A stretch of DNA of 64,000 nt, from assembly GCA_011911785.1 (NCBI GenBank), contig GCA_011911785.1_4084.1; one strand, 5' to 3'. Under the pieces are notes generated by a model. The model was not told the origin of the DNA and made no database searches. It saw only the letters and a list, made by a program, of their open reading frames with translations. The position numbers and the translations under genes were made by a program. Position 1 is the first letter of the stretch; each line of letters begins with the position of its first letter. This DNA is from a phage. Shown here one piece after another: positions 31,495 through 53,504 of the stretch.

Positions 31495-31558
31495 GAAGTG
31501 TCTGAGTCTATAATCTACCGTAGAGCACAAGGATGTGCTCATAACTCAAGGATGTTTT

Positions 31559-32998
31559 ATGAAAAAATACACAATTGACACAAACGTACTACTATCCGAT
31601 CCAAATGCAACCGTAGCATTTGATGGGGCAGCAGTGATTCTACCATTCACTGTTCTTGAAGAACTTGATTCAATCAAGAGCCGTAATGTTGACGTATCAC
31701 GTGATGCACGTTTCGCAATCCGTAACATCGATGCAATTCTGAAAGATGCTACTCATGAAGAAATCAGCAGTACTGGTGTTAATATTGCCAATATCCACAA
31801 AAATATGGATGCATCCAGTAAGCTATTCGTTATGACGAATGAAGAAGCTGAAGCACTTATTCGTATGGGCGGCAGTGAAGATAAAGTAGAAACTCTACTT
31901 AAAAGTACTGTACCAGATGACAAAATCATTCTAGTGGCTTTGGCATCACAATCAGTACTGGTAACTCGCGACATTAACATGCGTATCAAAGCAATGAGCT
32001 ACGGTGTTGAGGTACAAGATTACCGTCATGACGTTGCAATCGAAGATAGTGAGTTGATTCATATTGGTCAGCACCACCTTGATATTGATTTCTGGAAAAC
32101 ATTCAGTGAAGTTAATAATGCTGAAATTAAATCCCAACAAGAAGGTCGCCGTCTATATCACTATATTCCAACCGCATTGATTCAAGATGTTCTACCAGAT
32201 AATCTATGTATTGGTGATTATCTATATGATAATGCTGATGTACTATTCGTATACGAAGGTCAATCTGCTATCGAAGAAGAAGACGGTTCACTAACACCTG
32301 AAGATATTTTGGTATTCCAGGATATTGGTCAAAGTATCGCTCTTCGTGCTAAAGTTTGGGATATTAAAGCAAAGAATATTCAACAGGCACTAGCAATTAA
32401 CAGTATTCTTGACCCTGATGTACATTTGACAGTACTACTCGGTTCAGCAGGTACTGGTAAAACATTGATTACTGTTGCTACTTCACTCGAATTAGTACTA
32501 GAGAAGCGTAAATACGATCGTATAATCTTCTCCAAAACACAAGATTCTCAATTTGAAGAAATTGGTTTCTTGCCTGGTTCTGAAGCTGAGAAGGTCATCC
32601 CATTCTGTGGGGCTGCAATTGATGCACTAGAGTATCTACACAAAGACGATGCTAACCCACAAGGTAGTATTGAAGAGATTCTCAAACGTAACGTAATGCA
32701 GTTTAAAGCATTGAACTTTATTCGTGGTCGTTCTTTTACTAATACAATTCTAATTGTTGATGAATTCCAGAACATCACCCCTGCACAGGCAAAAACTATT
32801 CTTACCCGTGCAGGTCAAAACTGTAAGGTTATCATTATGGGTAACTTAGCACAGATTGATAGTAAGTTTATTAGTCCAGTTAATAGTGGTTTGACATATG
32901 TAACTGAAAAATTCAAAGATTGGGAAGGGTGTCGTATCATTGAATTGGAAGGTGTTGTACGTTCTGCACTTGCAGAGTTTGCAGAAGAAAATATGTAA
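31559..32998 (+). CDS. phoH: PhoH-like ATPase with N-terminal PIN-like domain
   Basis: Walker A GSAGTGKT, Walker B-like VDEFQN; start set to ATG 31559 with 'aagga' RBS. Confidence 0.85.
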   Translation: MKKYTIDTNVLLSDPNATVAFDGAAVILPFTVLEELDSIKSRNVDVSRDARFAIRNIDAILKDATHEEISSTGVNIANIHKNMDASSKLFVMTNEEAEALIRMGGSEDKVETLLKSTVPDDKIILVALASQSVLVTRDINMRIKAMSYGVEVQDYRHDVAIEDSELIHIGQHHLDIDFWKTFSEVNNAEIKSQQEGRRLYHYIPTALIQDVLPDNLCIGDYLYDNADVLFVYEGQSAIEEEDGSLTPEDILVFQDIGQSIALRAKVWDIKAKNIQQALAINSILDPDVHLTVLLGSAGTGKTLITVATSLELVLEKRKYDRIIFSKTQDSQFEEIGFLPGSEAEKVIPFCGAAIDALEYLHKDDANPQGSIEEILKRNVMQFKALNFIRGRSFTNTILIVDEFQNITPAQAKTILTRAGQNCKVIIMGNLAQIDSKFISPVNSGLTYVTEKFKDWEGCRIIELEGVVRSALAEFAEENM

Positions 32999-33005
32999 TC
33001 TATTA

Positions 33006-33034
33006 TTGACATTAAATGTGTTCATTGCTATAAT
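33006..33034 (+). promoter_or_regulatory. consensus sigma70 promoter (TTGACA-17 nt-TATAAT)
   Basis: Perfect -35 at 33006..33011 and perfect -10 at 33029..33034; RBS aaggaag and ATG 33067 downstream. Confidence 0.6.
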
Positions 33035-33399: not shown

Positions 33400-34146
33400 A
33401 TGGATCTTGAAAAACAAACCGAAGCAATCATCACCGAACTAATCAAAATTGGTTATAAATGTCCATTCATCTATGGTTCATGGAATACTTTTTGTTTGTA
33501 TAAGTATGATGACAAATTGCCAAATGATATTGATGTTATTAATATAGTACCAGAAGAGTATGAAGAAGGTGAATTCTCTGTAAAATTAGATTGTATTGAT
33601 ATACCTGTCAATATAGAATGTATGACTCTAAATCATCTTCGTGTAGAATTAATGCGTGGGGATGTTAAATACTATACCATTGGTTTTGGTACTATTGTAC
33701 CGAAATGTGCAAATCATCTTTTGATGTACCTTGGTCATATCGGTTCGGTTATGATGACCCGCCGTAACAGTGAGATTCGTAAAATTTGCAGTACTGCATC
33801 AGATAAAGCCTTTAATAAAGGAAAAAAGAAGTTGACAGTACTGGAAGATTACGATAAGATGTTAGGACTAAAGAACATCTGGCATAGCATTCACTTCATC
33901 TATATCATTACGCATTATTACAATCTGTACAGATCTAACACTGAACATGAAATGAATATTGCGTCGATGAAACAAGAGTTTGATGTGCTTGAAATGCTGA
34001 ACATTCGCGACAACATCTATAAGATATATGATGAAACATATGGTGATTATCATGTAAAAGCACAAGCTGTTATTGATTACGCGAAACCGATTCGTAACAA
34101 ACTGATGACTGAATTTAGAAAATTATACCCCAAGGAGGATGTATGA
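33400..34146 (+). CDS. hypothetical protein
   Basis: 248-aa ORF; a weak GS...DxD-like segment (YGSW..NDIDV) is too loose to call. Confidence 0.4.
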   Translation: MDLEKQTEAIITELIKIGYKCPFIYGSWNTFCLYKYDDKLPNDIDVINIVPEEYEEGEFSVKLDCIDIPVNIECMTLNHLRVELMRGDVKYYTIGFGTIVPKCANHLLMYLGHIGSVMMTRRNSEIRKICSTASDKAFNKGKKKLTVLEDYDKMLGLKNIWHSIHFIYIITHYYNLYRSNTEHEMNIASMKQEFDVLEMLNIRDNIYKIYDETYGDYHVKAQAVIDYAKPIRNKLMTEFRKLYPKEDV

Positions 34147-42686: not shown

Positions 42687-45386
42687 ATGGCAAAGAAAAT
42701 ATATGGTGGCATTGATGTTACACATAATGTAACAGTCAAAGGTAAGAGAAGTGTTCAGAGCATCAATGATAACGTATTTGATGAAAATGGCAATCTCACA
42801 ATAGATGCATATACACAAGATGATATGCTGGAAATGGTTGGTATGTTACCCATTTCTCGTTATGGTACACAAAACTATCTACCTGCTGGTGTCAATGGTA
42901 CAACAGTTGGTTCTTCAGAAAATGCTAGTTCCAGAAATACAAAATTATTTTTGGAAGATGATAACACTTTAGTAATGTTACGTCCGGGTACTAATGGAAG
43001 TTCACAGGGGATTTATTATAGTTATATGACCCAGGCGGTTGGTACAACAAATACAAGTCGTATGGTTAATACTACTCGTGCATATAAACCAAATTATTTT
43101 GGTGCTGGGTATGCAGTTTATTTGTATCCAAGCAGTGATGATATTACTTGTGGTTTGGTGAGAACTGAAAATTCTGATGGTACATATATTGATAGAGTTT
43201 TTGTTTCAGTCAATAATGGTACTATGAATGATACAATGCACACTGGTATTATTCTATCAGACCATACAGCCGTACAACCTTTTGGTGCAATACAATTTGT
43301 TATTCGTGCTGAAGATGGTTCATTATACTTTTTCAGTTTAGATACACCAAGCAATACTCTTAAAATATCCGTTACTAAAGTTACTTTTAGTCCAAGTAAT
43401 AACCCAGGTGGTGGTACTTATAGTACTACTAGAATTACTGGTTGGGCCACAAGAACTTTTTATAATGCAATGGTATATGATGACAATATTGTTCCAACTA
43501 TGAAAATAAATTCAACAAATACCAATGATAATCCATACGTTTTAATTCCAAGTGGTATTATTGGGTTTGGTGTTTATATGACAGATCCAGATTTATATGT
43601 TGCACAGAAATCTGGTACATCCGAATTCAGATTTAGATTATGTGGTGATATGTGGATGACAAATGGACGATATGACACACGCCCACAACACAGTTTTAGT
43701 ATGACTTTTGATGTTGTGACAAAACAATGTAAATTGGATAATATGTTAACGACTACACCAGTTGCTGTTAATGACACGGGTTCAAGTATGAATGTAACGG
43801 GTCAATGCATAACAAAAGATCCATTTTATCTTCACGCGGGTGGTCGTAATATTTTTAGTAATTATTGCTATGTACCATCAACTGGTGATGCATTTTGTTC
43901 ATTCTCACCAAACCTCGCAGAAGCATTGAATTTATCATACGCGAAATATCCACCACAGTCATTGTTTAATTTAATGAATGTTAGAAGTGTATCAGCAACT
44001 AATTTTATTAATGGTGTAGTATCACCAAGATTTGGTTCAGCAGTTGGATCATACCAAGTAGGCGTAGAGTTATTACCAAATAACAGTACTAAACAATATT
44101 CAAGACGTTCTGGTGATGGTCGTTTTTATCCATCCTATGCTGTACATAAAGCTACACCGAACTTCACATTTAAGTCTCTAGACTATGGTACTGTTCCTGG
44201 TTATGAACCAACACCAGACCGAGCGTTTATAACTACACCAGAATCTAGAATTTTTATAAGTTCAATTTCTGGATCAACGGTAACGACTAATGGTGGTGTT
44301 TTGGTGGCTGATAATAGAACATCAACTCCTATTAGTTTTGATTATAAAGGTAATGTACTGAATAATGGTACAATCAGTATGTCTCAAGATATAATGAATG
44401 CTATTCGAAATTCCGAATTTGCTAAAGTTGCTAGTTCATGGAATATATCACCAGAATCAATAAAAACATTATCTGTATTTGTTCCACAACAAACTGATAT
44501 TCCTGTTTTTGGTGTTCTTGCAGCATCTACTACAGCCCGTGGTTTATATGTACGAGTTGTTGAATTGAATGTCAATACAAGAACTGGTGATATTACAACA
44601 TGGTCGTTCAAACGTTTAGTACATGAAAGTGTTCAAGCTGGGGATTACAAAACAGATACCGCATATCATCTTGATAGTGGAAGTATTGGTATTACTATAT
44701 ATGATGCTGGTTCTTTCTACTTCATCGGTGGTGGTATTCCTGGGTTCTTTAATACTGTTGGTAATACAGCTTCACCATTTTTCCGTGCTACAGTAGATAA
44801 AGCAACTGCCCAATTTAATAATTTCCATATAGCGGGTCAGCGTCCGATCTATGCATTAGATGGTCAACCATTCGCTTTACCTAATATTGGGTTTGGTATT
44901 CTTCAAAGTATAGATAATACAAACAAAACAATTTTTAGAACATATGGTACTACATTAGCGGATTATAATGCATGGACTGATAAAGGAAATCCATTTATAT
45001 GTCTTGTTTCCCAAGATGTTGCTCAAGGTTTTATTATATACTTCACCGAAGAGACACCAGTACTGATATCCGGTAAACACTATACATTACCAATATCAAA
45101 TATAGATTTAACAACTGTGAAAGCAAATCCTGCCAATACTACATTTTATGTGTATATTAAATTAGTACAGGGTATTGCAAACTATCATATATCAACAACT
45201 GAATTAGCTGAAACTCATTCAATATTCTGGATTGGTACAGTGAAAACTGATAATTTACAAATAACCGAAATTAATATAGAAAAACGTTCTCGTTTAGACC
45301 TGTTTGGTTCATCATTCAACGCTGCCGGAAGTTCCTTCCCAGTAAGTTCTGGGTTCCCTTCAAGTTCTGGTAATGTGAATTGGTAA
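42687..45386 (+). CDS. putative tail fibre / receptor-binding protein (paralog A)
   Basis: 899 aa, Gly/Ser/Thr/Asn-rich; N-terminal (MLPISRYGTQNYLP) and C-terminal (SSGFPSSSGNVNW) modules shared with 45998..48739. Confidence 0.45.
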   Translation: MAKKIYGGIDVTHNVTVKGKRSVQSINDNVFDENGNLTIDAYTQDDMLEMVGMLPISRYGTQNYLPAGVNGTTVGSSENASSRNTKLFLEDDNTLVMLRPGTNGSSQGIYYSYMTQAVGTTNTSRMVNTTRAYKPNYFGAGYAVYLYPSSDDITCGLVRTENSDGTYIDRVFVSVNNGTMNDTMHTGIILSDHTAVQPFGAIQFVIRAEDGSLYFFSLDTPSNTLKISVTKVTFSPSNNPGGGTYSTTRITGWATRTFYNAMVYDDNIVPTMKINSTNTNDNPYVLIPSGIIGFGVYMTDPDLYVAQKSGTSEFRFRLCGDMWMTNGRYDTRPQHSFSMTFDVVTKQCKLDNMLTTTPVAVNDTGSSMNVTGQCITKDPFYLHAGGRNIFSNYCYVPSTGDAFCSFSPNLAEALNLSYAKYPPQSLFNLMNVRSVSATNFINGVVSPRFGSAVGSYQVGVELLPNNSTKQYSRRSGDGRFYPSYAVHKATPNFTFKSLDYGTVPGYEPTPDRAFITTPESRIFISSISGSTVTTNGGVLVADNRTSTPISFDYKGNVLNNGTISMSQDIMNAIRNSEFAKVASSWNISPESIKTLSVFVPQQTDIPVFGVLAASTTARGLYVRVVELNVNTRTGDITTWSFKRLVHESVQAGDYKTDTAYHLDSGSIGITIYDAGSFYFIGGGIPGFFNTVGNTASPFFRATVDKATAQFNNFHIAGQRPIYALDGQPFALPNIGFGILQSIDNTNKTIFRTYGTTLADYNAWTDKGNPFICLVSQDVAQGFIIYFTEETPVLISGKHYTLPISNIDLTTVKANPANTTFYVYIKLVQGIANYHISTTELAETHSIFWIGTVKTDNLQITEINIEKRSRLDLFGSSFNAAGSSFPVSSGFPSSSGNVNW

Positions 45387-45396
45387 TGGAGATAAT

Positions 45397-45987
45397 ATGG
45401 CTTATAAATTTAGATCTGATGTGGAAGCGTATGCTTCCGTTAAATCACAAGGAAAAAATACTGGGACCACGATAACTGATCGTTCTGGTAATGTGTATCA
45501 AGCTGATGCTAATGGGAATGTTGATGTACCACTCATGAGTACAGATGATGTGAATTACATTACCAGTTCCTTTCCGTTATCACAATTTGGTTCACTTTAC
45601 AGTACTGAACCATTGGGTATTTCTGCTGCTGGTTTCAATTTAACTTTCAGCAAAGAATTACCGTTATTCATGGCGGGAGCGGCGTATACCCTCCCAGCTA
45701 AAACAATAACAGATCCCGGTGTTTCTGGTACTAATATTGAAACACATTATGTATATGTTATATTAGATGTTGGGGTAGCTGACTACCTCATTTCTAAAAC
45801 TCAACGCCCTGAAAGTAGTGTTAATATGTACATAGGACAACTGACAGTTTTCCCAGATGGCATTACAGGGGTCAGTATAAATAAAGTGTCAAGATTTGAC
45901 GACTTCAGAGTAAGTGCTACAAAAATTGGTTCAGCTATCCCTATCAGTTCTGGTACACCAGATGTGAATAGTGGGACAGAATGGTAA
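45397..45987 (+). CDS. short tail-fibre-related protein
   Basis: 196 aa; C-terminus SSGTPDVNSGTEW is paralogous to the C-termini of both flanking large proteins. Confidence 0.4.
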   Translation: MAYKFRSDVEAYASVKSQGKNTGTTITDRSGNVYQADANGNVDVPLMSTDDVNYITSSFPLSQFGSLYSTEPLGISAAGFNLTFSKELPLFMAGAAYTLPAKTITDPGVSGTNIETHYVYVILDVGVADYLISKTQRPESSVNMYIGQLTVFPDGITGVSINKVSRFDDFRVSATKIGSAIPISSGTPDVNSGTEW

Positions 45988-45997
45988 AGGAATATAT

Positions 45998-48739
45998 ATG
46001 GCTTCGAGACGAATTATAGGAAACGCAGAAATACTAGGGAATTTGAAAATTAATGGAAAGTATGCATTACGTTCCTTTAATGGATTCCCTGCTGATTCTG
46101 CTGGTAAAATCACTTACCAATATTATGACAAAGCGGAAGTAGATCAGATGTTTGATATGCTTCCAGTTTCAAGGGTAGGTGATCAAGATTACCTACCGAT
46201 GAGTATTAACGGTACATTTGAAGGTGCTTCTTCCTTTTCATTTGAAAAAATAATGCAACCTTGTATCATTGAAAATGATGGTACTGGTGTAATTTTACGT
46301 GCAGGTACAAATGGAAGTTCTTATGGTTACTATTATGCTTATATTAAAAATATAAGAGATATAGAAACACTAACTCAAGATAATATAATTATAACCAACA
46401 CGATGTATAGACCTTCTGTGCTACCAAGTACTGATTACATTTATGAATTTTATGGGTCAAATGCATATGAATTACTATTTTGGGAATCAACTGATAGAGC
46501 ATCATACTACCTTACATTAACAAATGAAACATTAAATGAATCAGCACACAAACATTGCAGAATTCCAAAAACAGCAATAACAAATAAACCAATCTATGCA
46601 CACATCGTAAATGATTCAGTTTATATATGGTGTATGGATTCAAGTGTATTGAGTAGTGTTCGCGGGTGTGCATTTATCATATACACAGTACCTTTAACTG
46701 CATTTAATACTGGTTCAGTTTCGACAGTAACACAGATTAGTGGTTATTCAGGAAGAACTATAAGAAATGTAACATACACTGCATCTAATAATATTCGTGT
46801 TTATGATAGTTATTCAGTGTTGGGTTCAGGTGGTGATGCACTAATAGCATATGATAATGGTGTTTCCAGAATAGATTATTGGGAAAATAACGCATTTAAT
46901 ACCCAAGCAGTTCTTAGCCCTGATGGTACAAAAATAAGAGTAGCGATATATCCAGGGTTTCGTGTCTTTACCGCAACAAAAACATCTAGTGTATATGCAC
47001 TTGGTATCAGCTTTACATATGATATCAGTACTAAAACAATGACACTTGACGGTTCTGAACGTGGTCCAATCAGAGTATCAGCTAATACATCAACTGGTAG
47101 TATAACAGTGAGTAACCCGTTTTCAATCAATATGGAAAACTTTACAGGGTTTTATGATGGTGCACTTGGTAACTATGGTTCAATCTGTCAAACTTCTGAT
47201 GGTTTTGTTTTCACTACCAAAGCAAGATGGTCATCCATGCCGACCTATGCAGTACAAACATACAAAGTTTCTGGTACACCTTATGATAGTTGGGTTGCTA
47301 AAACACGTACTGGTAGTAATTTAAAACGTGTAGAAGTAATGCCAGTTTATGGCTCCCCTGTCGGTGAAAACTTAATAGGTGTTCGTTTCGTAGATAAACG
47401 TAAGATACTTGTTGCATGTTCTGGTACTGCTGATGGAATTTCTTATGGTTATGATAGTACAGTTTTTACTGAAATAGGTGAGAATCCAACTTATAGTTAT
47501 AAAAACTTGGAACAAAATACCACAATGAATGGTTTTGCACCATCAGGTAATAGACACTATTTAAGTACTGATTACAAATATGCAGGTATGGTAACATTGG
47601 TTGATGCCAATGGAAATGTCAGCACTTATGGATCTTCTTTAATAGAAGGTATCGATAAACCAGCTTATGGAAAATTCGACCCTGTTACAATGGACTTTAA
47701 CAGTGATAGATATGAAATTTCAGGAACTACATTATCAGGTATAGGTTATAATGCCGTTGCTAAAGCTGGATTGACTGGAATAACTGAACATAAAACTGTT
47801 TTTTATTATGTACCTGATACTACATATTCTAAATCTATTGCAGTCACTTCTGCACTAAACGGTACTACCAACGTGTGTTATATTATTTTTTCCGAAATAT
47901 CATGTAGTGCACTGGGTACAAGTGGTACTATAATTTTACGTGGTATTAGTGTTGATACAGCAAGATATACATCAATCACGAATACATTCCAAATTTCACC
48001 AAATGAAATGATCAAACGTTGGGCTGGTATGACTGTTGCTAAGTTTAGTGGTTTTAACTACTTAGGTGTGAACATTTTATATGGCATTGATACCCCAGGT
48101 TGGACTCGTTATCCTAACATGATTGCTAAAGTGAAAAATGGTATTATTTCAAGTCAACGATATATGGAAACAACTTATATTTCAAACGCACAATTTGATA
48201 TAGGTACAATTCCAGGGATTGGGTTTGGATATTACCAAATGAACAAAAACGATTATCAAACTAAATCAGTTTTTGCTGTATGTGGTACTACTGAAGCAGA
48301 TATGGATAAACTAATATCTGGTAATGAAACGATATCACAGTACTTAGTTGTTGCTTCACAGGATGTGGCACAAGGGTTCAACGTGTACTTTTCACAAGAA
48401 GTACCAGTTTTCTTGGGTGGAAAGTTTGCAAAGATACCACCGACTATGATAGACTTATCTACCATAAGTACTACACCAGATAATTCAACATTCTACATAT
48501 ATGCGGTTATGGATAGAGGTACATCTACAGCATCGTATCAGATATCACTATATCAATTATCAGAAACTATGACATCAACCTACATTGGTAAGATAGTAAC
48601 TGATGCTAATGGTATTGCATCAATCGAGTCTGAAAAAGTGTCCAGATTCTTGCTATACCGCCCAAGTACCTACAATCGTGGTTCTGCTATCCCAGCTAGT
48701 TCTGGGTTACCATCACAATCTGGTACTCGTTGGAGTTAA
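45998..48739 (+). CDS. putative tail fibre / receptor-binding protein (paralog B)
   Basis: Start set to ATG 45998 (MASRRIIGN) with aaaggaa RBS; MLPVSRVGDQDYLP and C-terminal SSGLPSQSGTRWS. Confidence 0.45.
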   Translation: MASRRIIGNAEILGNLKINGKYALRSFNGFPADSAGKITYQYYDKAEVDQMFDMLPVSRVGDQDYLPMSINGTFEGASSFSFEKIMQPCIIENDGTGVILRAGTNGSSYGYYYAYIKNIRDIETLTQDNIIITNTMYRPSVLPSTDYIYEFYGSNAYELLFWESTDRASYYLTLTNETLNESAHKHCRIPKTAITNKPIYAHIVNDSVYIWCMDSSVLSSVRGCAFIIYTVPLTAFNTGSVSTVTQISGYSGRTIRNVTYTASNNIRVYDSYSVLGSGGDALIAYDNGVSRIDYWENNAFNTQAVLSPDGTKIRVAIYPGFRVFTATKTSSVYALGISFTYDISTKTMTLDGSERGPIRVSANTSTGSITVSNPFSINMENFTGFYDGALGNYGSICQTSDGFVFTTKARWSSMPTYAVQTYKVSGTPYDSWVAKTRTGSNLKRVEVMPVYGSPVGENLIGVRFVDKRKILVACSGTADGISYGYDSTVFTEIGENPTYSYKNLEQNTTMNGFAPSGNRHYLSTDYKYAGMVTLVDANGNVSTYGSSLIEGIDKPAYGKFDPVTMDFNSDRYEISGTTLSGIGYNAVAKAGLTGITEHKTVFYYVPDTTYSKSIAVTSALNGTTNVCYIIFSEISCSALGTSGTIILRGISVDTARYTSITNTFQISPNEMIKRWAGMTVAKFSGFNYLGVNILYGIDTPGWTRYPNMIAKVKNGIISSQRYMETTYISNAQFDIGTIPGIGFGYYQMNKNDYQTKSVFAVCGTTEADMDKLISGNETISQYLVVASQDVAQGFNVYFSQEVPVFLGGKFAKIPPTMIDLSTISTTPDNSTFYIYAVMDRGTSTASYQISLYQLSETMTSTYIGKIVTDANGIASIESEKVSRFLLYRPSTYNRGSAIPASSGLPSQSGTRWS

Positions 48740-48746
48740 AAAAATT

Positions 48747-48777
48747 AAGCCTGTCTATTGACAGGCTTTTCTTTTAT
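48747..48777 (+). terminator. rho-independent terminator
   Basis: Hairpin aagcctgtc-tatt-gacaggctt followed by a T-tract. Confidence 0.6.
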
Positions 48778-48786
48778 CCGTATAAT
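48758..48786 (+). promoter_or_regulatory. consensus sigma70 promoter (TTGACA-17 nt-TATAAT) overlapping the terminator
   Basis: Perfect -35 at 48758..48763 (inside the terminator 3' arm) and perfect -10 at 48781..48786; RBS aggagg and ATG 48809 downstream. Confidence 0.55.
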
Positions 48787-48808
48787 GCTAAAAAACTAGG
48801 AGGAAACT

Positions 48809-49369
48809 ATGGTACAATCACGTTTTAGACCACCGCTGTCACCAGCACAGTTACAACGTTTAAAAGAAAAAGAGCAGCACTTTCAGAATACCCTAGTAGT
48901 TCGTTTGCTATGCAAAAGTGTAACTCTTAAAGATTTTGTGAAAACCGATAATGAACGTAAATCACTTATCGAACTTAAGTACAAGTTAAGTAAGCATAAA
49001 CTATATGGATTACTAGCAGAATACACCCAAAATCCATTCAGTGATCGTTGGTCTATGGTTCAAAAAAAACTGTGGGGTGGTGATGAAGAATTCACACTAC
49101 GTGATTTAAAAAATGCAATCATGTTTAAGGTCGATTATACACCAGCAGGGATTGAACACAGAACCGAAGAAACTATCATTCAATCAAGAGATTTATCATG
49201 TGTTGTTTCTTCAAACTTCGGTGTTCATTATGATATGCTTGATGACGATGAGTTAATGATCCTGTTCCATGTGATTATTGGTGCTGAAGATATTAAAGAA
49301 AAGTTATCACAAATTGAAGAAGAACAGCGTAAATTCAAAATCCAAAAGAGAATAACTGATTTATATTAA
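48809..49369 (+). CDS. hypothetical protein, tandem paralog family member 1
   Basis: Shares DNERKSLIELKYKLSKHKL and LFHVIIGAEDIKEKLSQIEEEQRKFK with the next two ORFs. Confidence 0.45.
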   Translation: MVQSRFRPPLSPAQLQRLKEKEQHFQNTLVVRLLCKSVTLKDFVKTDNERKSLIELKYKLSKHKLYGLLAEYTQNPFSDRWSMVQKKLWGGDEEFTLRDLKNAIMFKVDYTPAGIEHRTEETIIQSRDLSCVVSSNFGVHYDMLDDDELMILFHVIIGAEDIKEKLSQIEEEQRKFKIQKRITDLY

Positions 49370-49378
49370 GAGGTTACT

Positions 49379-49879
49379 ATGTTTTTCAAAAAGAAAAATA
49401 ATGATCACAAAAGAGAAAATGTAGAGTGGTGTACATTAATTCTTCCAGTACTGATGAAAAGCTATTCTTTAAAAGAAATTATCCGTACTGATGAAGATCG
49501 TAGAACTATACTTAAAATTAAAGAAATGTTAAGTTCTCATTCTCTAATGAAACTAATCACAGACCTAGTTAAAGAACCATACGGTGAACGTTGGTTATAT
49601 GAACCAGTATTCATATATGGTAATCATATCAACCGTGTAAAATTGTTTGATACCGAAACTAAGGTTGATTTTAATGCAGTAACATATTCATCTAAAGATT
49701 ATGATGAAAAACATACATTTGTTTATATTAACGGAGATGCGAATATTCTACCTAAACATGAACAAATGTTTTTGTTTCATTTACTCGTTGCACTTCGTGA
49801 GCTTGAAACAAAGTACAAGAAGTTAGAATACGAGCAGCATAAACTTAATGAATTTAATAAATTAAAAGGATTATACTAA
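49379..49879 (+). CDS. hypothetical protein, tandem paralog family member 2
   Basis: DEDRRTILKIKEMLSSHSL and LFHLLVALRELETKYKKLEYEQHKL. Confidence 0.45.
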   Translation: MFFKKKNNDHKRENVEWCTLILPVLMKSYSLKEIIRTDEDRRTILKIKEMLSSHSLMKLITDLVKEPYGERWLYEPVFIYGNHINRVKLFDTETKVDFNAVTYSSKDYDEKHTFVYINGDANILPKHEQMFLFHLLVALRELETKYKKLEYEQHKLNEFNKLKGLY

Positions 49880-50385
49880 TGTTCTTCGGTAAACATAAAG
49901 TAAAAGATGATGGTATTCTTCAGTACTTAGTTGCGTTGATTTTAAACAAAAGTACTTTATTAGTACCTAATATTAAATCAGACAAAGATCGCAGAGAAAT
50001 TATTCAAAACAAATATCTTCTTTCAAAATGTGATCCTGTTATCTATGCATTTTGTAAGTACTGTTCAAAAAACTTGTTCAGTATTCATGTAGATTTTGAA
50101 AGACAAGAAAGCAGCACACGAAATTCTTGTTTTAAAGTGTATATGATTAATGATTTAAATCGTGGGAATCGAGGGTTCATGTTCTGGATGGACGGACGTG
50201 ATATACGTGTGCGTATTAAAATGTCAGTTGGGTGGAAGGATTTTTCAACTTCTGTATCTGATTTTCTTGTACTTCACGCACTATATAACAGTATTACTAA
50301 CGTGAAAGATATCGACAAGAAAATTCAGGAACAAAAAGAATTGGATGATGCAAAGAACGAATACTTACAACATTACAGGAGTTAA
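49879..50385 (+). CDS. hypothetical protein, tandem paralog family member 3
   Basis: DKDRREIIQNKYLLSKCD and LVLHALYNSITNVKDIDKKIQEQKEL. Confidence 0.45.
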   Translation: MFFGKHKVKDDGILQYLVALILNKSTLLVPNIKSDKDRREIIQNKYLLSKCDPVIYAFCKYCSKNLFSIHVDFERQESSTRNSCFKVYMINDLNRGNRGFMFWMDGRDIRVRIKMSVGWKDFSTSVSDFLVLHALYNSITNVKDIDKKIQEQKELDDAKNEYLQHYRS

Positions 50386-50388
50386 TAT

Positions 50389-50790
50389 ATGGATCTTGAT
50401 GATGTGTATAGCACCATAAGACAGATGGATTCGTATAAAAAAGTATATAGTGGTTACAAGAGTGATAAACAATTTTATGGAATCGGGGAGTATGATGTAA
50501 TATCATTCGAATACGATGATACTGGTGAAAGTTCCATTAATATTGTTTGTCCTCGTGACCGTGAAAATAACTTCATGTACGTTGAAATCAATAATGATGG
50601 TTTACACTTTACTAAAATATTAAATGGTGGCAAACAATCTATTTCTCTGGATTTATCCGAAGAAGAAAAGTTCTTTCAAGAAGATACTATAATCAATCTA
50701 GGTTTTAGTTTATCAGAATACAAAGTTCTTCATAAAGATTTCATGAAGTACTATAATGGGTTTCTTAAGGAGCTAACATTACATCTATGA
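50389..50790 (+). CDS. hypothetical protein
   Basis: 133-aa ORF. Confidence 0.4.
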   Translation: MDLDDVYSTIRQMDSYKKVYSGYKSDKQFYGIGEYDVISFEYDDTGESSINIVCPRDRENNFMYVEINNDGLHFTKILNGGKQSISLDLSEEEKFFQEDTIINLGFSLSEYKVLHKDFMKYYNGFLKELTLHL

Positions 50791-53066
50791 ATAATAACAA
50801 ATTTCTTGAACAAACAATTGTGAAGCACTTAGCAGGTTCACAAGCGTATGGAACCAGTACACCTGAAAGTGATACGGATTATCGTGGTATTTTTCTTGCT
50901 AACAAAGAATTTATCCTTACACCTTTTTATAATGTCAAGGAAGTTTCTGATAAAAAAGAAGAAGATACTAAATTCTATGAACTAAATCAGTACTTAAGAC
51001 TATACACAGAGGCTAACCCAAATATCCTTGAATCACTATGGGTTGATCCTGAACACATCGTAGAAAGTACTGAAATCTATGATTATCTACGTACATTCAA
51101 TCAACAATTACTTAGTTCTAAGATTGCATTCTCTTATACCGGTTATGCATATAATCAGGTTAAACGTATGTCCAATCACCACGGGTGGATGGATAAAGAG
51201 CGTATTGCTGAAAAACGTCTAAATGAAATCTTAGAAGATTTTCCAGTAGATGAAACTTTAGCATGGATGTATGAAAACTTCCCACACTATTTGGTAGAAC
51301 GTTTAGATACTTCTAAACTACATCCATTTAATGCTAAGAAAATAGATTTTGAAAAATACATGCGTGATACTTCATTGCAGTTAGTTTCGACTCATCCGTT
51401 GAAACAGTATCATTTTGTACGTTTAGTACATAATTACAGTACTGATAAAGTACTAGACCGTGATTTCAACTTATTGGATTATAACAATGGGTACGAATTA
51501 ATTCATTACGGTGAAAATATCTTTGGTGTTATTATCAATCCTAATGAAAGTACAATTAACGCTGATGGTTCTTTACGTTATTTCAACAAAGAACGCAGTA
51601 CTGAAGAATTGAAAGTACGACCTGAACTCATTGTCAAATTCAATGAAAAAGAATACAGTGAGAACAGTGAGAACCGTAAAAGTTATCACAAATGGAAAGA
51701 GAATCGTAATGCTAAACGTGCAATTCTTGAATCCAAACACGGCTATGACTGTTATAGTTTTGATACTGAATTCTTAACTAAAGATGGTTGGAAATTGTTT
51801 GATGATATCACTGAAAATGATCTATTAGCAACATTTGATAAAAATCACAAAATAGAATATCAGAAATATACTGAACGTTTTGATAATTTATATAATGGCA
51901 ACCTATATCACTTCACTGGTTATCACCAAGATACTTTAGTGACTGCTAACCATCGAATGTATGTTAAGGATTATGCACGTAATCAGAAAAAAGATATGTC
52001 TGATTGGAAATTTGTGGAAGCTGCACAATTAAAAGAAACATATAAAATTTTGAATACATTATCCCCAATAACAAACGAATACCAAGATAAAAAAAGTCCA
52101 TTTGACTACATGGATATCAAAGTTTATCTTCAACTTATGGGATGGTTTATTTCAGATGGTAGTATAAGTTTCAGAGATGGTAAAGTAAAATCATTATATA
52201 TTTCCCAATCAAAAGCAAGTCCAGGTATGCGTTGTGCTTTAACAAAATACAAACAATCTGGTCAATTGGTTTTCCATGAATACATTGTAGAAAAGAAAGA
52301 TTATCAAGCGAATGATGAATCAAGATTTACATTCCCACGTGAAGTGGCTGAAGCATTATATAATGATTGTGGACATGGTTCATATAATAAACGAATTCCA
52401 AATTGGGTATTTGATTTAACAAAACGCAAAATGGATTTTCTACTGAAAGGTTTGTTACAAGGTGATGGTACAAAACGCAATTTAGTTAATGATAATGATA
52501 CATATGTATATTATACTGCGAATTCATTATTAGCAGATGATGTTCAAAAACTAGCATTACTGTGCGGGTATGAAACATCAAAATGGGGGCCGTACACAAA
52601 CGAGACTAATTTTGGACGTGTTGATATGTATCAAATTCATATCAACATGAAACCGAAATCCGAAAAAATGAACATGAAACAAAATCTTGAAAAAATTCCA
52701 GTTACTAATTACAGAACTGTTTGTTTTTCTGTTCCCAACGGCACACTCGTTACTCGTAGAAATGGTAAAATAGCATTACATGGAAACTGCAAACATGCTA
52801 TGCATACGATCAGACTTTTGAATACAGCCGAAGAAGCATTACAAAGCGGTATTATCCTCGTGAAACGTCCTGATGCTGATATGCTAATGGATATTCGCAA
52901 CGGTAAATGGAAATATGAAGAAGTCATGGATTATTTCAATGAAAAGGTTGACTATATTCGTAATGTAGTGTATCCTAAGTCAGTACTACCAAAGAAACCA
53001 GATATTGCATTAGCAGCGAAAGTACTTTTAGATATTCGTGAAATGCAATGGTATAGTTCAAAATAA
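50787..53066 (+). CDS. Pol-beta-superfamily nucleotidyltransferase-domain protein interrupted by a putative intein
   Basis: N-terminal NTase signature GS-x10-DTD (HLAGSQAYGTSTPESDTDYRG); central ~346-aa insertion with intein-like blocks. Confidence 0.55.
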   Translation: MNNNKFLEQTIVKHLAGSQAYGTSTPESDTDYRGIFLANKEFILTPFYNVKEVSDKKEEDTKFYELNQYLRLYTEANPNILESLWVDPEHIVESTEIYDYLRTFNQQLLSSKIAFSYTGYAYNQVKRMSNHHGWMDKERIAEKRLNEILEDFPVDETLAWMYENFPHYLVERLDTSKLHPFNAKKIDFEKYMRDTSLQLVSTHPLKQYHFVRLVHNYSTDKVLDRDFNLLDYNNGYELIHYGENIFGVIINPNESTINADGSLRYFNKERSTEELKVRPELIVKFNEKEYSENSENRKSYHKWKENRNAKRAILESKHGYDCYSFDTEFLTKDGWKLFDDITENDLLATFDKNHKIEYQKYTERFDNLYNGNLYHFTGYHQDTLVTANHRMYVKDYARNQKKDMSDWKFVEAAQLKETYKILNTLSPITNEYQDKKSPFDYMDIKVYLQLMGWFISDGSISFRDGKVKSLYISQSKASPGMRCALTKYKQSGQLVFHEYIVEKKDYQANDESRFTFPREVAEALYNDCGHGSYNKRIPNWVFDLTKRKMDFLLKGLLQGDGTKRNLVNDNDTYVYYTANSLLADDVQKLALLCGYETSKWGPYTNETNFGRVDMYQIHINMKPKSEKMNMKQNLEKIPVTNYRTVCFSVPNGTLVTRRNGKIALHGNCKHAMHTIRLLNTAEEALQSGIILVKRPDADMLMDIRNGKWKYEEVMDYFNEKVDYIRNVVYPKSVLPKKPDIALAAKVLLDIREMQWYSSK
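51750..52787 (+). mobile_element. putative intein with LAGLIDADG-type homing endonuclease domain
   Basis: Block A CYSFDTEFLT, block B TANH, two LAGLIDADG-like motifs (LMGWFISDGSIS, LLKGLLQGDGTK), C-terminal NGKIALHGN followed by Cys; in frame with the host ORF. Confidence 0.5.
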
Positions 53067-53078
53067 GAGGATATTGAT

Positions 53079-53504
53079 ATGCTGAATTCAAACATTGTTG
53101 AAGCTCTTCGTGTACTGAACCGTGAAGTTAGCCGTATCCATAAAAGTACTGATCGTTATAAAGTAATGCATGAAATTAAACTAGAATTAGAAGCTATCAA
53201 TAAGGGTGAATGGTTCCTTGAACCAGAATACCGTACACGTGGACCAACTGACGTTGAGAAAGCAATTGCAAAATTCATTTCTGGACGTTATGGTGATGTA
53301 TCAGAGGCAGATGTACTGATGAATTTACATTTAACCTCCTTAGAAATTGAAGATAAATTCAAATTTGATTCACTGGACTGGGTAGAAATGATCATGGAAC
53401 TTGAAGATGAATTTAAGGTTGAGATCGAAGATAAGTATGAATCAGGTGATACCAGAATCGTGCATCTCGTTGAACATGTACAAACAATGATCGATAAACG
53501 CTAA
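53079..53504 (+). CDS. hypothetical acidic protein
   Basis: 141-aa ORF. Confidence 0.4.
   Translation: MLNSNIVEALRVLNREVSRIHKSTDRYKVMHEIKLELEAINKGEWFLEPEYRTRGPTDVEKAIAKFISGRYGDVSEADVLMNLHLTSLEIEDKFKFDSLDWVEMIMELEDEFKVEIEDKYESGDTRIVHLVEHVQTMIDKR

What the first reader, a model, noticed from the sequence alone, without database searches (positions are those of the whole stretch)
48809..50385. Tandem triplication of a small gene family directly downstream of a consensus promoter
Three adjacent ORFs (186, 166 and 168 aa) share two conserved blocks: [DN][EK]DR[KR].[IL][IL].[LI]K..LS.H.L and LFH..[IV].....I.EK..Q.E.EQ.K. They are driven by a perfect TTGACA-17 nt-TATAAT promoter that overlaps the upstream terminator. 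Tandem paralog expansion in phage early regions is often linked to host-takeover or anti-defence arms races.
Basis: seen in the sequence. Interest (0 to 1): 0.45.

Follow-up and report, generated by a model that had tools for sequence, protein, structure and literature searches.

The report
Old paralog family in jumbo phages
Three neighbouring genes of a 350-kb E. coli jumbo phage are real but ancient, deeply diverged copies of one small protein family. The family is found only in this phage group, has its own conserved promoter, and has no known function or known fold.

Summary
ORFs 48809-49369, 49379-49879 and 49879-50385 are true homologues: ORF1/ORF2 BLASTP E 4e-15, and ORF1/2-type against ORF3-type profiles E 1.4e-15 over the full length. 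A perfect TTGACA-17-TATAAT promoter is embedded in the upstream terminator hairpin.

It is not a recent triplication. The window is an Asteriusvirus, 98.5% identical to Escherichia phage A4. The copies share only about 24% identity and are positional orthologues of 121Q gp502-504.

The family is confined to RaK2-like enterobacterial jumbo phages, with 41 clusters among 1.84 billion representatives. Copy number is 2 in RaK2, 3 in Asteriusvirus, 4 in CBB and 5 in a Salmonella-associated phage. It always lies between ~900-aa virion proteins and an RlaP nucleotidyltransferase.

The proteins are absent from the phAPEC6 and CBB virion proteomes and are under purifying selection (dN/dS 0.16-0.22). 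They diverge faster than their neighbours.

My best guess, which is inferred and not shown, is soluble non-virion host-interaction or counter-defence binding proteins. The finding is moderately interesting.

The parts
45998..48739 (+). Upstream ~913-aa fibre-like gene; its stop codon precedes the terminator. The listed ORF begins at a GTG at 45971, and the A4 annotation implies a start at 45998.
   Evidence: phrog_3573, E 7.8e-207. It is a paralogue of the 899-aa ORF at 42687-45386 (26% identity, E 1e-51). The 899-aa ORF corresponds by position and size to phAPEC6 gp323c, which was detected in virions. The CBB counterparts gp148 and gp149 are MS-verified structural proteins.
48747..48768 (+). 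Intrinsic terminator hairpin (AAGCCTGTC-TATT-GACAGGCTT) followed by a T-run.
   Evidence: minimum free energy -15.4 kcal/mol, z -5.6. The hairpin is 100% paired in six phages from several genera. Three pairs change on both sides.
48758..48786 (+). Sigma-70-type promoter TTGACA-17 nt-TATAAT. The -35 hexamer lies in the loop and 3' arm of the terminator, and the terminator's T-run forms the spacer.
   Evidence: The same layout with a 17-nt spacer is conserved in 121Q, JNE01, SD-6, phAPEC6, CBB and two more distant contigs. RaK2 has a separate terminator followed by TTGACA-17-TAAAAT.
48798..48803 (+). Shine-Dalgarno sequence AGGAGG, 5 nt upstream of the ORF1 ATG.
   Evidence: Read directly from the sequence.
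48809..49369 (+). Paralogue 1 (186 aa, ORF1/2-type), orthologue of 121Q gp502 and phAPEC6 gp321c.
   Evidence: AlphaFold model pLDDT 92.8. dN/dS 0.16 against L015.
49379..49879 (+). Paralogue 2 (166 aa, ORF1/2-type), orthologue of 121Q gp503 and phAPEC6 gp320c.
   Evidence: dN/dS 0.17.
49879..50385 (+). Paralogue 3 (168 aa, ORF3-type), orthologue of 121Q gp504, phAPEC6 gp319c and RaK2 ORF002. Its ATG overlaps the ORF2 stop codon (TAATG).
   Evidence: dN/dS 0.22.
50389..50790 (+). Unrelated, conserved, acidic 133-aa protein (pI 4.6) that directly follows the paralogues.
   Evidence: phrog_22376. It is 60-68% identical across genera and is not a family member. pI.
50787..53066 (+). RlaP-type nucleotidyltransferase, here interrupted by an intein with a LAGLIDADG domain. 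Its start overlaps the stop of the 133-aa gene.
   Evidence: PF10127 E 1.5e-15 and PF14528. Residues 1-322 and 658-759 align to the 413-aa A4 protein.

Best explanation
The three ORFs are long-diverged members of one protein family of about 20 kDa. The family is specific to RaK2-like jumbo phages of Enterobacterales.

Shown:
- They are homologues, conserved in position and order, and under purifying selection.
- They are soluble and mildly basic, and were absent from two virion proteomes.
- They are preceded in every lineage examined by a sigma-70-type promoter. In most lineages that promoter is built into the terminator of the upstream virion gene.
- They are tightly packed or overlapping with a conserved acidic 133-aa gene and an RlaP nucleotidyltransferase.

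Inferred:
- The promoter lets RNA polymerase (host sigma-70 or the phage's own sigma-70-like factor) transcribe this block separately from the flanking late genes.
- The products are intracellular, probably non-enzymatic binding proteins acting at the phage-host interface, for example in counter-defence or host-factor capture.
- The better-conserved N-terminal four-helix module (K-S...D..R......KY.LS) would supply a common function. The fast-evolving beta-sheet and C-terminal helix would supply paralogue-specific target recognition.
- Gene birth and loss (2-5 copies) would then track the repertoire of host targets.
For: - Homology.
- Positional orthology and old duplications.
- Restricted distribution: 41 clusters, all single-domain and 115-209 aa, among 1.84e9 representatives. 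tblastn hits only Asterius-, Alcyoneus-, Mimas- and Eneladus-type phages.
- Copy number of 2 to 5.
- Not virion components: phAPEC6 gp319c-321c are absent from the MS table although the flanking gp323c and gp314c are present (PMC7247149). CBB_150/153/155/156 are not MS-positive although CBB_148/149 are (PMC5259590).
- Conserved promoter, and terminator with compensatory changes.
- Purifying selection: dN/dS 0.16-0.22.
- Faster divergence than neighbours. The N-terminal domain is more conserved than the middle and C-terminal parts.
- Soluble, with no transmembrane segment; pI 7.8-9.2.
- Neighbours in other lineages are conflict-type genes: Thg1, DUF4326, an N4-cytosine methyltransferase and RlaP. 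Iyer et al. 2021 (PMC7824862) interpret these as RNA-repair or counter-defence functions.
- Xanthomonas phage XaC1 keeps the Thg1-DUF4326-RlaP synteny and the ~900-aa structural homologue but lacks the family. This fits a role tied to enterobacterial hosts.
Against: - There is no functional evidence and no homology to any characterised protein. Pfam, NCBIfam, PADLOC and PDB sequence searches are all empty.
- Expression timing is not measured. These phages encode their own sigma-70-family factor (CBB_513), so a sigma-70-like promoter does not prove early expression.
- Gene-wide dN/dS gives no sign of positive selection.
- The conserved polar residues (K, S, D, R, K, Y, S and the C-terminal Y) could equally mark a catalytic or nucleic-acid-binding site.
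- Guilt by association with RNA-repair genes is weak, because in Asteriusvirus the only such neighbour is RlaP.
Confidence: 0.4

Rival explanations
1. Accessory subunits of the neighbouring RNA-repair enzymes. The basic N-terminal helical domain would bind tRNA or RNA ends and hand substrates to the RlaP nucleotidyltransferase (and to Thg1 where present), with each paralogue specialised for a different damaged RNA.
For: - The family always lies upstream of RlaP, with tight or overlapping gene junctions suggesting co-translation.
- It is interleaved with Thg1 in CBB and in L010.
- The proteins are mildly basic and have conserved K/S/R/K/Y residues.
- RlaP and Thg1 are predicted RNA-repair enzymes (PMC7824862).
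Against: - RlaP is widespread (202 phage records) in phages with no detectable family member, such as 4MG, PVP-SE1-like phages and XaC1. The family is therefore not an obligate partner.
- No RNA-binding fold was recognised.
- The paralogues evolve far faster than RlaP: about 35% against 89% identity.
Confidence: 0.17
2. Non-virion assembly chaperones for the hypervariable ~900-aa fibre or whisker proteins encoded immediately upstream, with one chaperone type per fibre type.
For: - The genes lie directly downstream of paralogous ~900-aa virion proteins in every lineage. In RaK2 the upstream genes are tail-fibre or depolymerase genes.
- The proteins are absent from virions, as fibre chaperones are.
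- Their divergence is about as fast as that of the fibre genes: 41-49% against 33-37%.
Against: - A conserved, covarying terminator and a separate sigma-70-type promoter uncouple them from the fibre gene.
- XaC1 has the fibre homologue (E 6e-109) but no family member.
- The RaK2 upstream genes are annotated differently, as tail-fibre or tailspike (depolymerase-type) proteins rather than the ~900-aa type, yet RaK2 still has two copies.
- Copy numbers do not match fibre numbers in an obvious way.
- There is no similarity to known tail-fibre chaperones.
Confidence: 0.13
3. Small DNA-binding regulators. The N-terminal helical module would act as a helix-turn-helix-like DNA binder and the long C-terminal helix as a dimerisation stalk, modulating host or phage transcription.
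For: - Basic pI.
Against: - Only one member out of 41 gives even a marginal Pfam helix-turn-helix hit (Mga, E 0.1).
- pTM of 0.84 for the monomer implies that the C-terminal helix packs on the body instead of forming a free stalk.
Confidence: 0.1
4. The similarity is a compositional artefact of AT-rich phage ORFs.
For: ORF2 against ORF3 alone is weak (E 0.008).
Against: - Profile-profile E 1.4e-15 over the full length.
- PHROG cross-hits.
- The adjacent 133-aa and 141-aa ORFs of the same composition score as negatives (probability 0.1-0.3%).
- A 41-member alignment yields an AlphaFold model with pLDDT 92.8.
Confidence: 0.01

Closest known systems
PHROG families phrog_18641 and phrog_7868 ('unknown function')
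   Same: ORF1 and ORF2 match phrog_18641 (E 1e-32 and 9e-24), and ORF3 matches phrog_7868 (E 1e-26). These are the same proteins as annotated in 121Q (gp502-504), RaK2 (ORF001/002), CBB (gp150/153/155/156) and GAP32.
   Different: PHROGs keeps them as two separate families with no function. Here they are shown to be one superfamily with further subgroups in Mimasvirus- and Eneladusvirus-type phages.
Lineage-specific tandem families of small non-structural phage genes behind host-type promoters, such as the early accessory gene clusters of T4-like phages (from general knowledge)
   Same: Small, tandem, tightly packed or overlapping genes with a strong sigma-70-type promoter. They are non-virion, fast-evolving, variable in copy number and narrow in taxonomic range.
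   Different: No sequence or fold relationship to any characterised early protein. The block is nested between late virion genes. Timing and function are untested.
Phage tail-fibre assembly chaperones (Tfa, gp38, gp57 types)
   Same: Small non-virion proteins encoded just downstream of hypervariable fibre genes.
   Different: Separated from the fibre gene by a conserved terminator and their own promoter. No homology. XaC1 has the fibre homologue without them.
Overlapping terminator-promoter elements
   Same: An intrinsic terminator whose 3' arm and U-tract double as the -35 hexamer and spacer of the next promoter.
   Different: Here the arrangement is conserved across several jumbo-phage genera, with compensatory stem changes that include the sixth base of the -35 hexamer (A, G or C paired with U, C or G).

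Membership tests
One paralogous family (ORF1, ORF2, ORF3) | Statistically significant full-length sequence homology among the three ORFs | tested here: met
   BLASTP E 4e-15 and 1e-5. hhalign probability 98.6%, E 1.4e-15, 163 columns. Same-composition neighbouring ORFs are negative.
PHROG 18641 / 7868 | HMM match over the full profile length | tested here: met
   E 1e-32, 8.7e-24 and 1e-26, with reciprocal weaker cross-hits.
Any curated protein family (Pfam-A, NCBIfam) or known defence-system protein family (PADLOC) | HMM match above threshold | tested here: not met
   No hits for the three ORFs. Among 41 family members, only scattered single-member sub-threshold Pfam hits.
Anti-CRISPR or other anti-defence proteins | Homology to a characterised inhibitor, or demonstrated inhibition of a defence system | tested here: inconclusive
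Tail-fibre assembly chaperones | Co-transcription and obligate co-occurrence with the cognate fibre gene; homology to Tfa, gp38 or gp57 | tested here: not met
   A conserved terminator and own promoter lie between the fibre gene and ORF1. XaC1 has the fibre homologue but no family member. No homology.
Virion structural proteins | Detection in purified particles | tested here: not met
   The orthologues gp319c-321c are absent from the phAPEC6 MS table. CBB_150/153/155/156 are not MS-positive. This is literature evidence on orthologues, not on this phage.
Sigma-70-type promoter | -35 TTGACA and -10 TATAAT hexamers with a 17-nt spacer, in an intergenic position upstream of a gene and conserved in relatives | tested here: met
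   12/12 match at 48758-48786. Two matches in the window against 0.23 expected. Conserved with a 17-nt spacer in other genera.
Sigma-70-type promoter | Transcription initiation in vivo, and its timing (early) | not testable with these tools
   No transcriptome of an Asteriusvirus or Alcyoneusvirus was found in the literature searches.
Intrinsic (Rho-independent) terminator | G+C-rich hairpin followed by a U-tract, with the structure conserved by covariation | tested here: met
   (100% of cells paired; 3 of 9 pairs change on both sides; 0 of 500 shuffles reach the covariation score).

The most novel reading that the evidence does not exclude
The family could be a previously unrecognised fold of phage counter-defence proteins specific to enterobacterial jumbo phages. 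Each paralogue would neutralise a different host immune effector, for example tRNA- or translation-targeting abortive-infection nucleases. The family would act together with the co-located RlaP and Thg1 RNA-repair enzymes as a combined 'inhibit and repair' island expressed from a dedicated promoter.
Probability: 0.15. Interest if true: 0.65.

Novelty: new member of a known kind. Interest (0 to 1): 0.35.

Why it matters
More than 80% of genes in jumbo phages of the RaK2/121Q group are unannotated. This work does four things:
- It merges two 'unknown' PHROG families into one superfamily.
- It defines that superfamily's distribution and its copy-number dynamics.
- It shows that the family is non-structural and separately promoted.
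- It provides a high-confidence model with no structural neighbour.

Together these give a compact, testable candidate set for host-interaction or counter-defence screens in phages that are being developed for therapy against E. coli, Klebsiella and Salmonella. The conserved terminator-embedded promoter is also a tidy example of regulatory-signal overlap maintained by covariation. If the genes turn out to be fibre chaperones or housekeeping factors, the finding is ordinary.

Tried and rejected
- Word-indexed homologue searches returned only 2 to 7 proteins. The exhaustive HMMER search was needed to see the family.
- One hit from that search, P0010 (1157 aa, 14 matched stretches), is a translated tandem repeat and a false positive.
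- The first AlphaFold run, with 7 sequences, gave pLDDT 61. Its Foldseek PDB search was meaningless.
- I looked for hidden family members next to the RlaP gene in phage 4MG, which gave a weak BFVD hit, and in Xanthomonas phage XaC1. HMM and hhalign searches found none.
- I looked for extra copies elsewhere in the window and found none.
- I looked for other terminator-embedded promoters in the window. Only the one at 48758 has this layout.
- Literature searches for the locus tags, PHROG identifiers and transcriptomes of this phage group found nothing on these genes.
- The MEME-predicted RpoD-like promoter list for CBB does not include the CBB_150 promoter.
- Rfam and tRNA scans of the window were empty.

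Full report
**What the window is.** Region 48700-50800 is 98.5% identical to Escherichia phage A4 (ON286972, 355.5 kb, genus Asteriusvirus). At lower identity it matches 44 further Asteriusvirus and Alcyoneusvirus jumbo phages of Escherichia, Salmonella and Klebsiella.

**Checking the observation.** The three + strand ORFs are present exactly as described: 48809-49369 (186 aa), 49379-49879 (166 aa) and 49879-50385 (168 aa).
- ORF1 has an AGGAGG Shine-Dalgarno sequence 5 nt upstream of its ATG.
- The ORF3 ATG overlaps the ORF2 stop codon.
- A 133-aa ORF (50389-50790) and a nucleotidyltransferase gene (50787-53066) follow with a 3-nt gap and a 4-nt overlap respectively.

**Homology among the three ORFs.** Their homology is real.
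- ORF1 vs ORF2: BLASTP E 4e-15 over 161 residues at 24% identity.
- ORF1 vs ORF3: E 1e-5 in the N-terminal third.
- ORF2 vs ORF3: marginal alone, E 0.008.
- ORF1 and ORF2 hit phrog_18641, ORF3 hits phrog_7868, and each also hits the other family.
- A profile of ORF1/2 orthologues aligned to a profile of ORF3 orthologues gives hhalign probability 98.6%, E 1.4e-15 over 163 columns.
- Neighbouring ORFs of the same composition score as noise.

The blocks they approximate are the family's conserved core: L..KS..L......D.DR+.I...KY.LSK and a C-terminal helix ending in Tyr.

**Promoter and terminator.** The promoter TTGACA-17-TATAAT at 48758-48786 scores 12/12. It overlaps a hairpin with a 9-bp stem at 48747-48768, followed by a T-run. 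The window has two perfect promoters against 0.23 expected. The hairpin folds at -15.4 kcal/mol, z -5.6.

**Not a recent triplication.** The family occurs in all 45 Asteriusvirus and Alcyoneusvirus records and nowhere else in the phage collection at BLAST sensitivity.
- In 121Q the three genes are gp502-504, in phAPEC6 gp321c-319c, and JNE01 also has three.
- RaK2 and K64-1 have two, ORF001 and ORF002.
- Best hits are strictly positional: copy 1 with copy 1, copy 2 with copy 2, copy 3 with copy 3. RaK2 ORF001 groups with copies 1 and 2, and ORF002 with copy 3.

An exhaustive profile search of 1.84 billion representative proteins found only 41 clusters, all single-domain proteins of 115-209 aa, plus one repeat artefact. 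One of these clusters led to a 371-kb phage contig in a Salmonella assembly and to metagenomic contigs. From there it led to Mimasvirus (CBB, GAP32) and Eneladusvirus-type phages (Serratia BF, Erwinia pEa_SNUABM, Yersinia fHe-Yen9). A family HMM finds five copies in the Salmonella-associated phage and four in CBB (gp150, 153, 155, 156). It finds no additional copy elsewhere in the window. The family is therefore old, with lineage-specific gain and loss giving 2 to 5 copies.

**Genomic context.** The family sits in the same place in every lineage. Upstream lie large virion proteins, and downstream an RlaP-type (PF10127) nucleotidyltransferase.
- Upstream in the window are two ~900-aa paralogues, 26% identical to each other.
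- phAPEC6 gp323c and CBB_148/149 are MS-verified virion proteins.
- RaK2's upstream genes are annotated as tail-fibre and tailspike proteins.

In CBB and the Salmonella-associated phage the copies are interleaved with Thg1, DUF4326 and an N4-cytosine methyltransferase. Iyer et al. (PMC7824862) interpret RlaP and Thg1 as RNA-repair enzymes that counter host attacks on tRNA, and DUF4326 as a conflict-related enzymatic domain.

The family proteins themselves were not detected in the phAPEC6 or CBB virion proteomes, although their flanking genes were.

**The regulatory element is conserved.**
- 121Q, SD-6 and phAPEC6 carry the same hairpin with TTGACG-17-TATAAT. JNE01 has the same hairpin with TATACT as its -10 hexamer.
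- CBB and the Salmonella-type contigs carry TTGACC-17-TACACT/TATAAT inside an equivalent hairpin, plus a second promoter.
- RaK2 has a separate terminator and then TTGACA-17-TAAAAT.

In a six-sequence alignment all 54 stem cells pair, and three of the nine pairs change on both sides. One of these is the pair containing the sixth base of the -35 hexamer (A-U, G-C or C-G). None of 500 shuffles reaches the covariation score. Both the terminator and the 17-nt-spaced promoter are therefore under selection.

Whether the promoter is 'early' is inferred. These phages also encode a sigma-70-family factor, and no transcriptome was found.

**Evolutionary rate.** I compared the window with an intermediate metagenomic relative, L015.
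- dN/dS is 0.16 for ORF1, 0.17 for ORF2 and 0.22 for ORF3, similar to the neighbouring genes. These are real genes under purifying selection.
- Nucleotide identity jumps from 72-78% in ORF1 and ORF2 to 97% in ORF3 and the 133-aa gene. This indicates a recombination junction at the ORF2/ORF3 boundary.

Against 121Q the paralogues are 33-37% identical. The upstream 196-aa and ~900-aa proteins are 41% and 49% identical, the 133-aa protein 60%, and the nucleotidyltransferase 89%. Within the proteins, the N-terminal domain is better conserved (31-49%) than the middle (18-29%) and the C-terminal helix (17-39%).

**The protein.**
- Size about 20-22 kDa, pI 7.8-9.2, no transmembrane segment.
- With the 41-member alignment, AlphaFold2 gives pLDDT 92.8 and pTM 0.84 for ORF1.
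- The model has helices at 12-35, 40-43, 47-61 and 66-74, then five strands between 81 and 141, then a 40-residue C-terminal helix at 146-185.
- BFVD returns family members and other uncharacterised phage proteins.
- Pfam, NCBIfam, PADLOC and PDB sequence searches are empty.

**Discriminating among functions.**
- RlaP occurs in 202 phage records. Many of these (4MG, the PVP-SE1 group, XaC1) have no detectable family member near it. The family is therefore not an obligate RlaP partner.
- Xanthomonas phage XaC1 keeps the Thg1-DUF4326-RlaP synteny and a clear homologue of the ~900-aa structural protein (E 6e-109) but lacks the family. This argues against an obligate fibre-chaperone role.
- The same observation is consistent with a role tied to enterobacterial hosts.

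I therefore favour, at about 0.4, non-virion intracellular binding proteins at the phage-host interface. The rivals are RNA-repair accessory factors (0.17), fibre chaperones (0.13) and DNA-binding regulators (0.10).

**Verdict.**
Paralogy, the promoter and copy-number variation hold. 'Recent triplication' and 'early region' do not.
- The anti-defence idea remains an untested inference.
- The family is already catalogued, without function, as two PHROGs. What is new is their unification, the distribution, the conserved composite terminator-promoter, and a confident model with no known structural neighbour.
- Interest is moderate.

Noticed in passing
window 50787-53066 (insertion at about 51753-52757): The RlaP nucleotidyltransferase is 759 aa here, against 413 aa in phage A4 and in relative L015. 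Residues 1-322 and 658-759 align to the A4 protein. The roughly 335-aa insert begins with Cys, ends ...HGN|C and carries a LAGLIDADG domain (PF14528), so it is an intein with a homing endonuclease.
   Followed up: partly
window 53066-53079, compared with L001 15410-18824: Phage A4 has two tail-fibre genes (A4_503 and A4_504, 'tail protein I', 927 aa) between the nucleotidyltransferase and the 141-aa gene. The window phage and the metagenomic relative L015 go straight from the nucleotidyltransferase to the 141-aa gene. This is a fibre-gene indel between otherwise near-identical phages.
   Followed up: partly
window about 49879 (ORF2/ORF3 junction), compared with L015: Nucleotide identity to relative L015 jumps from 72-78% (ORF1, ORF2) to 97% (ORF3, 133-aa gene). 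This suggests a recombination breakpoint inside the paralogue array.
   Followed up: partly
window 50389-50790: An acidic (pI 4.6) 133-aa protein of unknown function (phrog_22376) is 60-68% identical across Asteriusvirus and Alcyoneusvirus. It is far more conserved than the paralogues it follows, and its gene overlaps the nucleotidyltransferase gene.
   Followed up: partly
window 42687-45386 and 45998-48739: Two paralogous ~900-aa proteins (26% identity, E 1e-51; phrog_3573) are separated by a 196-aa gene. phAPEC6 gp323c, the counterpart of the first by position and size, was detected in virions, as were the CBB counterparts gp148/149. A homologue exists even in Xanthomonas phage XaC1. They are probably the 'hairy' whisker or fibre proteins of this phage group.
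   Followed up: partly
window 50098-50150 (ORF3 residues about 74-91): ORF3 is only 94% identical to its A4 orthologue, and the differences cluster in one patch (ERQESSTRNSCFKVYMIN vs ERHESRTDSRINVYIIN). ORF2 is 100% identical and ORF1 98.4%. The cause could be a compensated frameshift or a local exchange.
   Followed up: no
window 33006-33034: The only other perfect TTGACA-17-TATAAT promoter in the window is intergenic, between ORFs 31535-32998 and 33400-34146. It is not embedded in a hairpin.
   Followed up: no
L014 5332-5463 (CBB); L010 6152-6499: In CBB and the Salmonella-associated jumbo phage, two sigma-70-like promoters lie in tandem upstream of the first family member. The first is embedded in a terminator hairpin in both. 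The second also overlaps a hairpin in CBB. L010 additionally has a small ORF between the fibre gene and the terminator.
   Followed up: no
L007 (Salmonella phage SD-1_S14), L006 (SD-6_S16), L008 (CMSTMSU): In these records the family genes are split into fragments of 36-172 aa. This probably reflects frameshift errors in the assemblies and not pseudogenisation.
   Followed up: no
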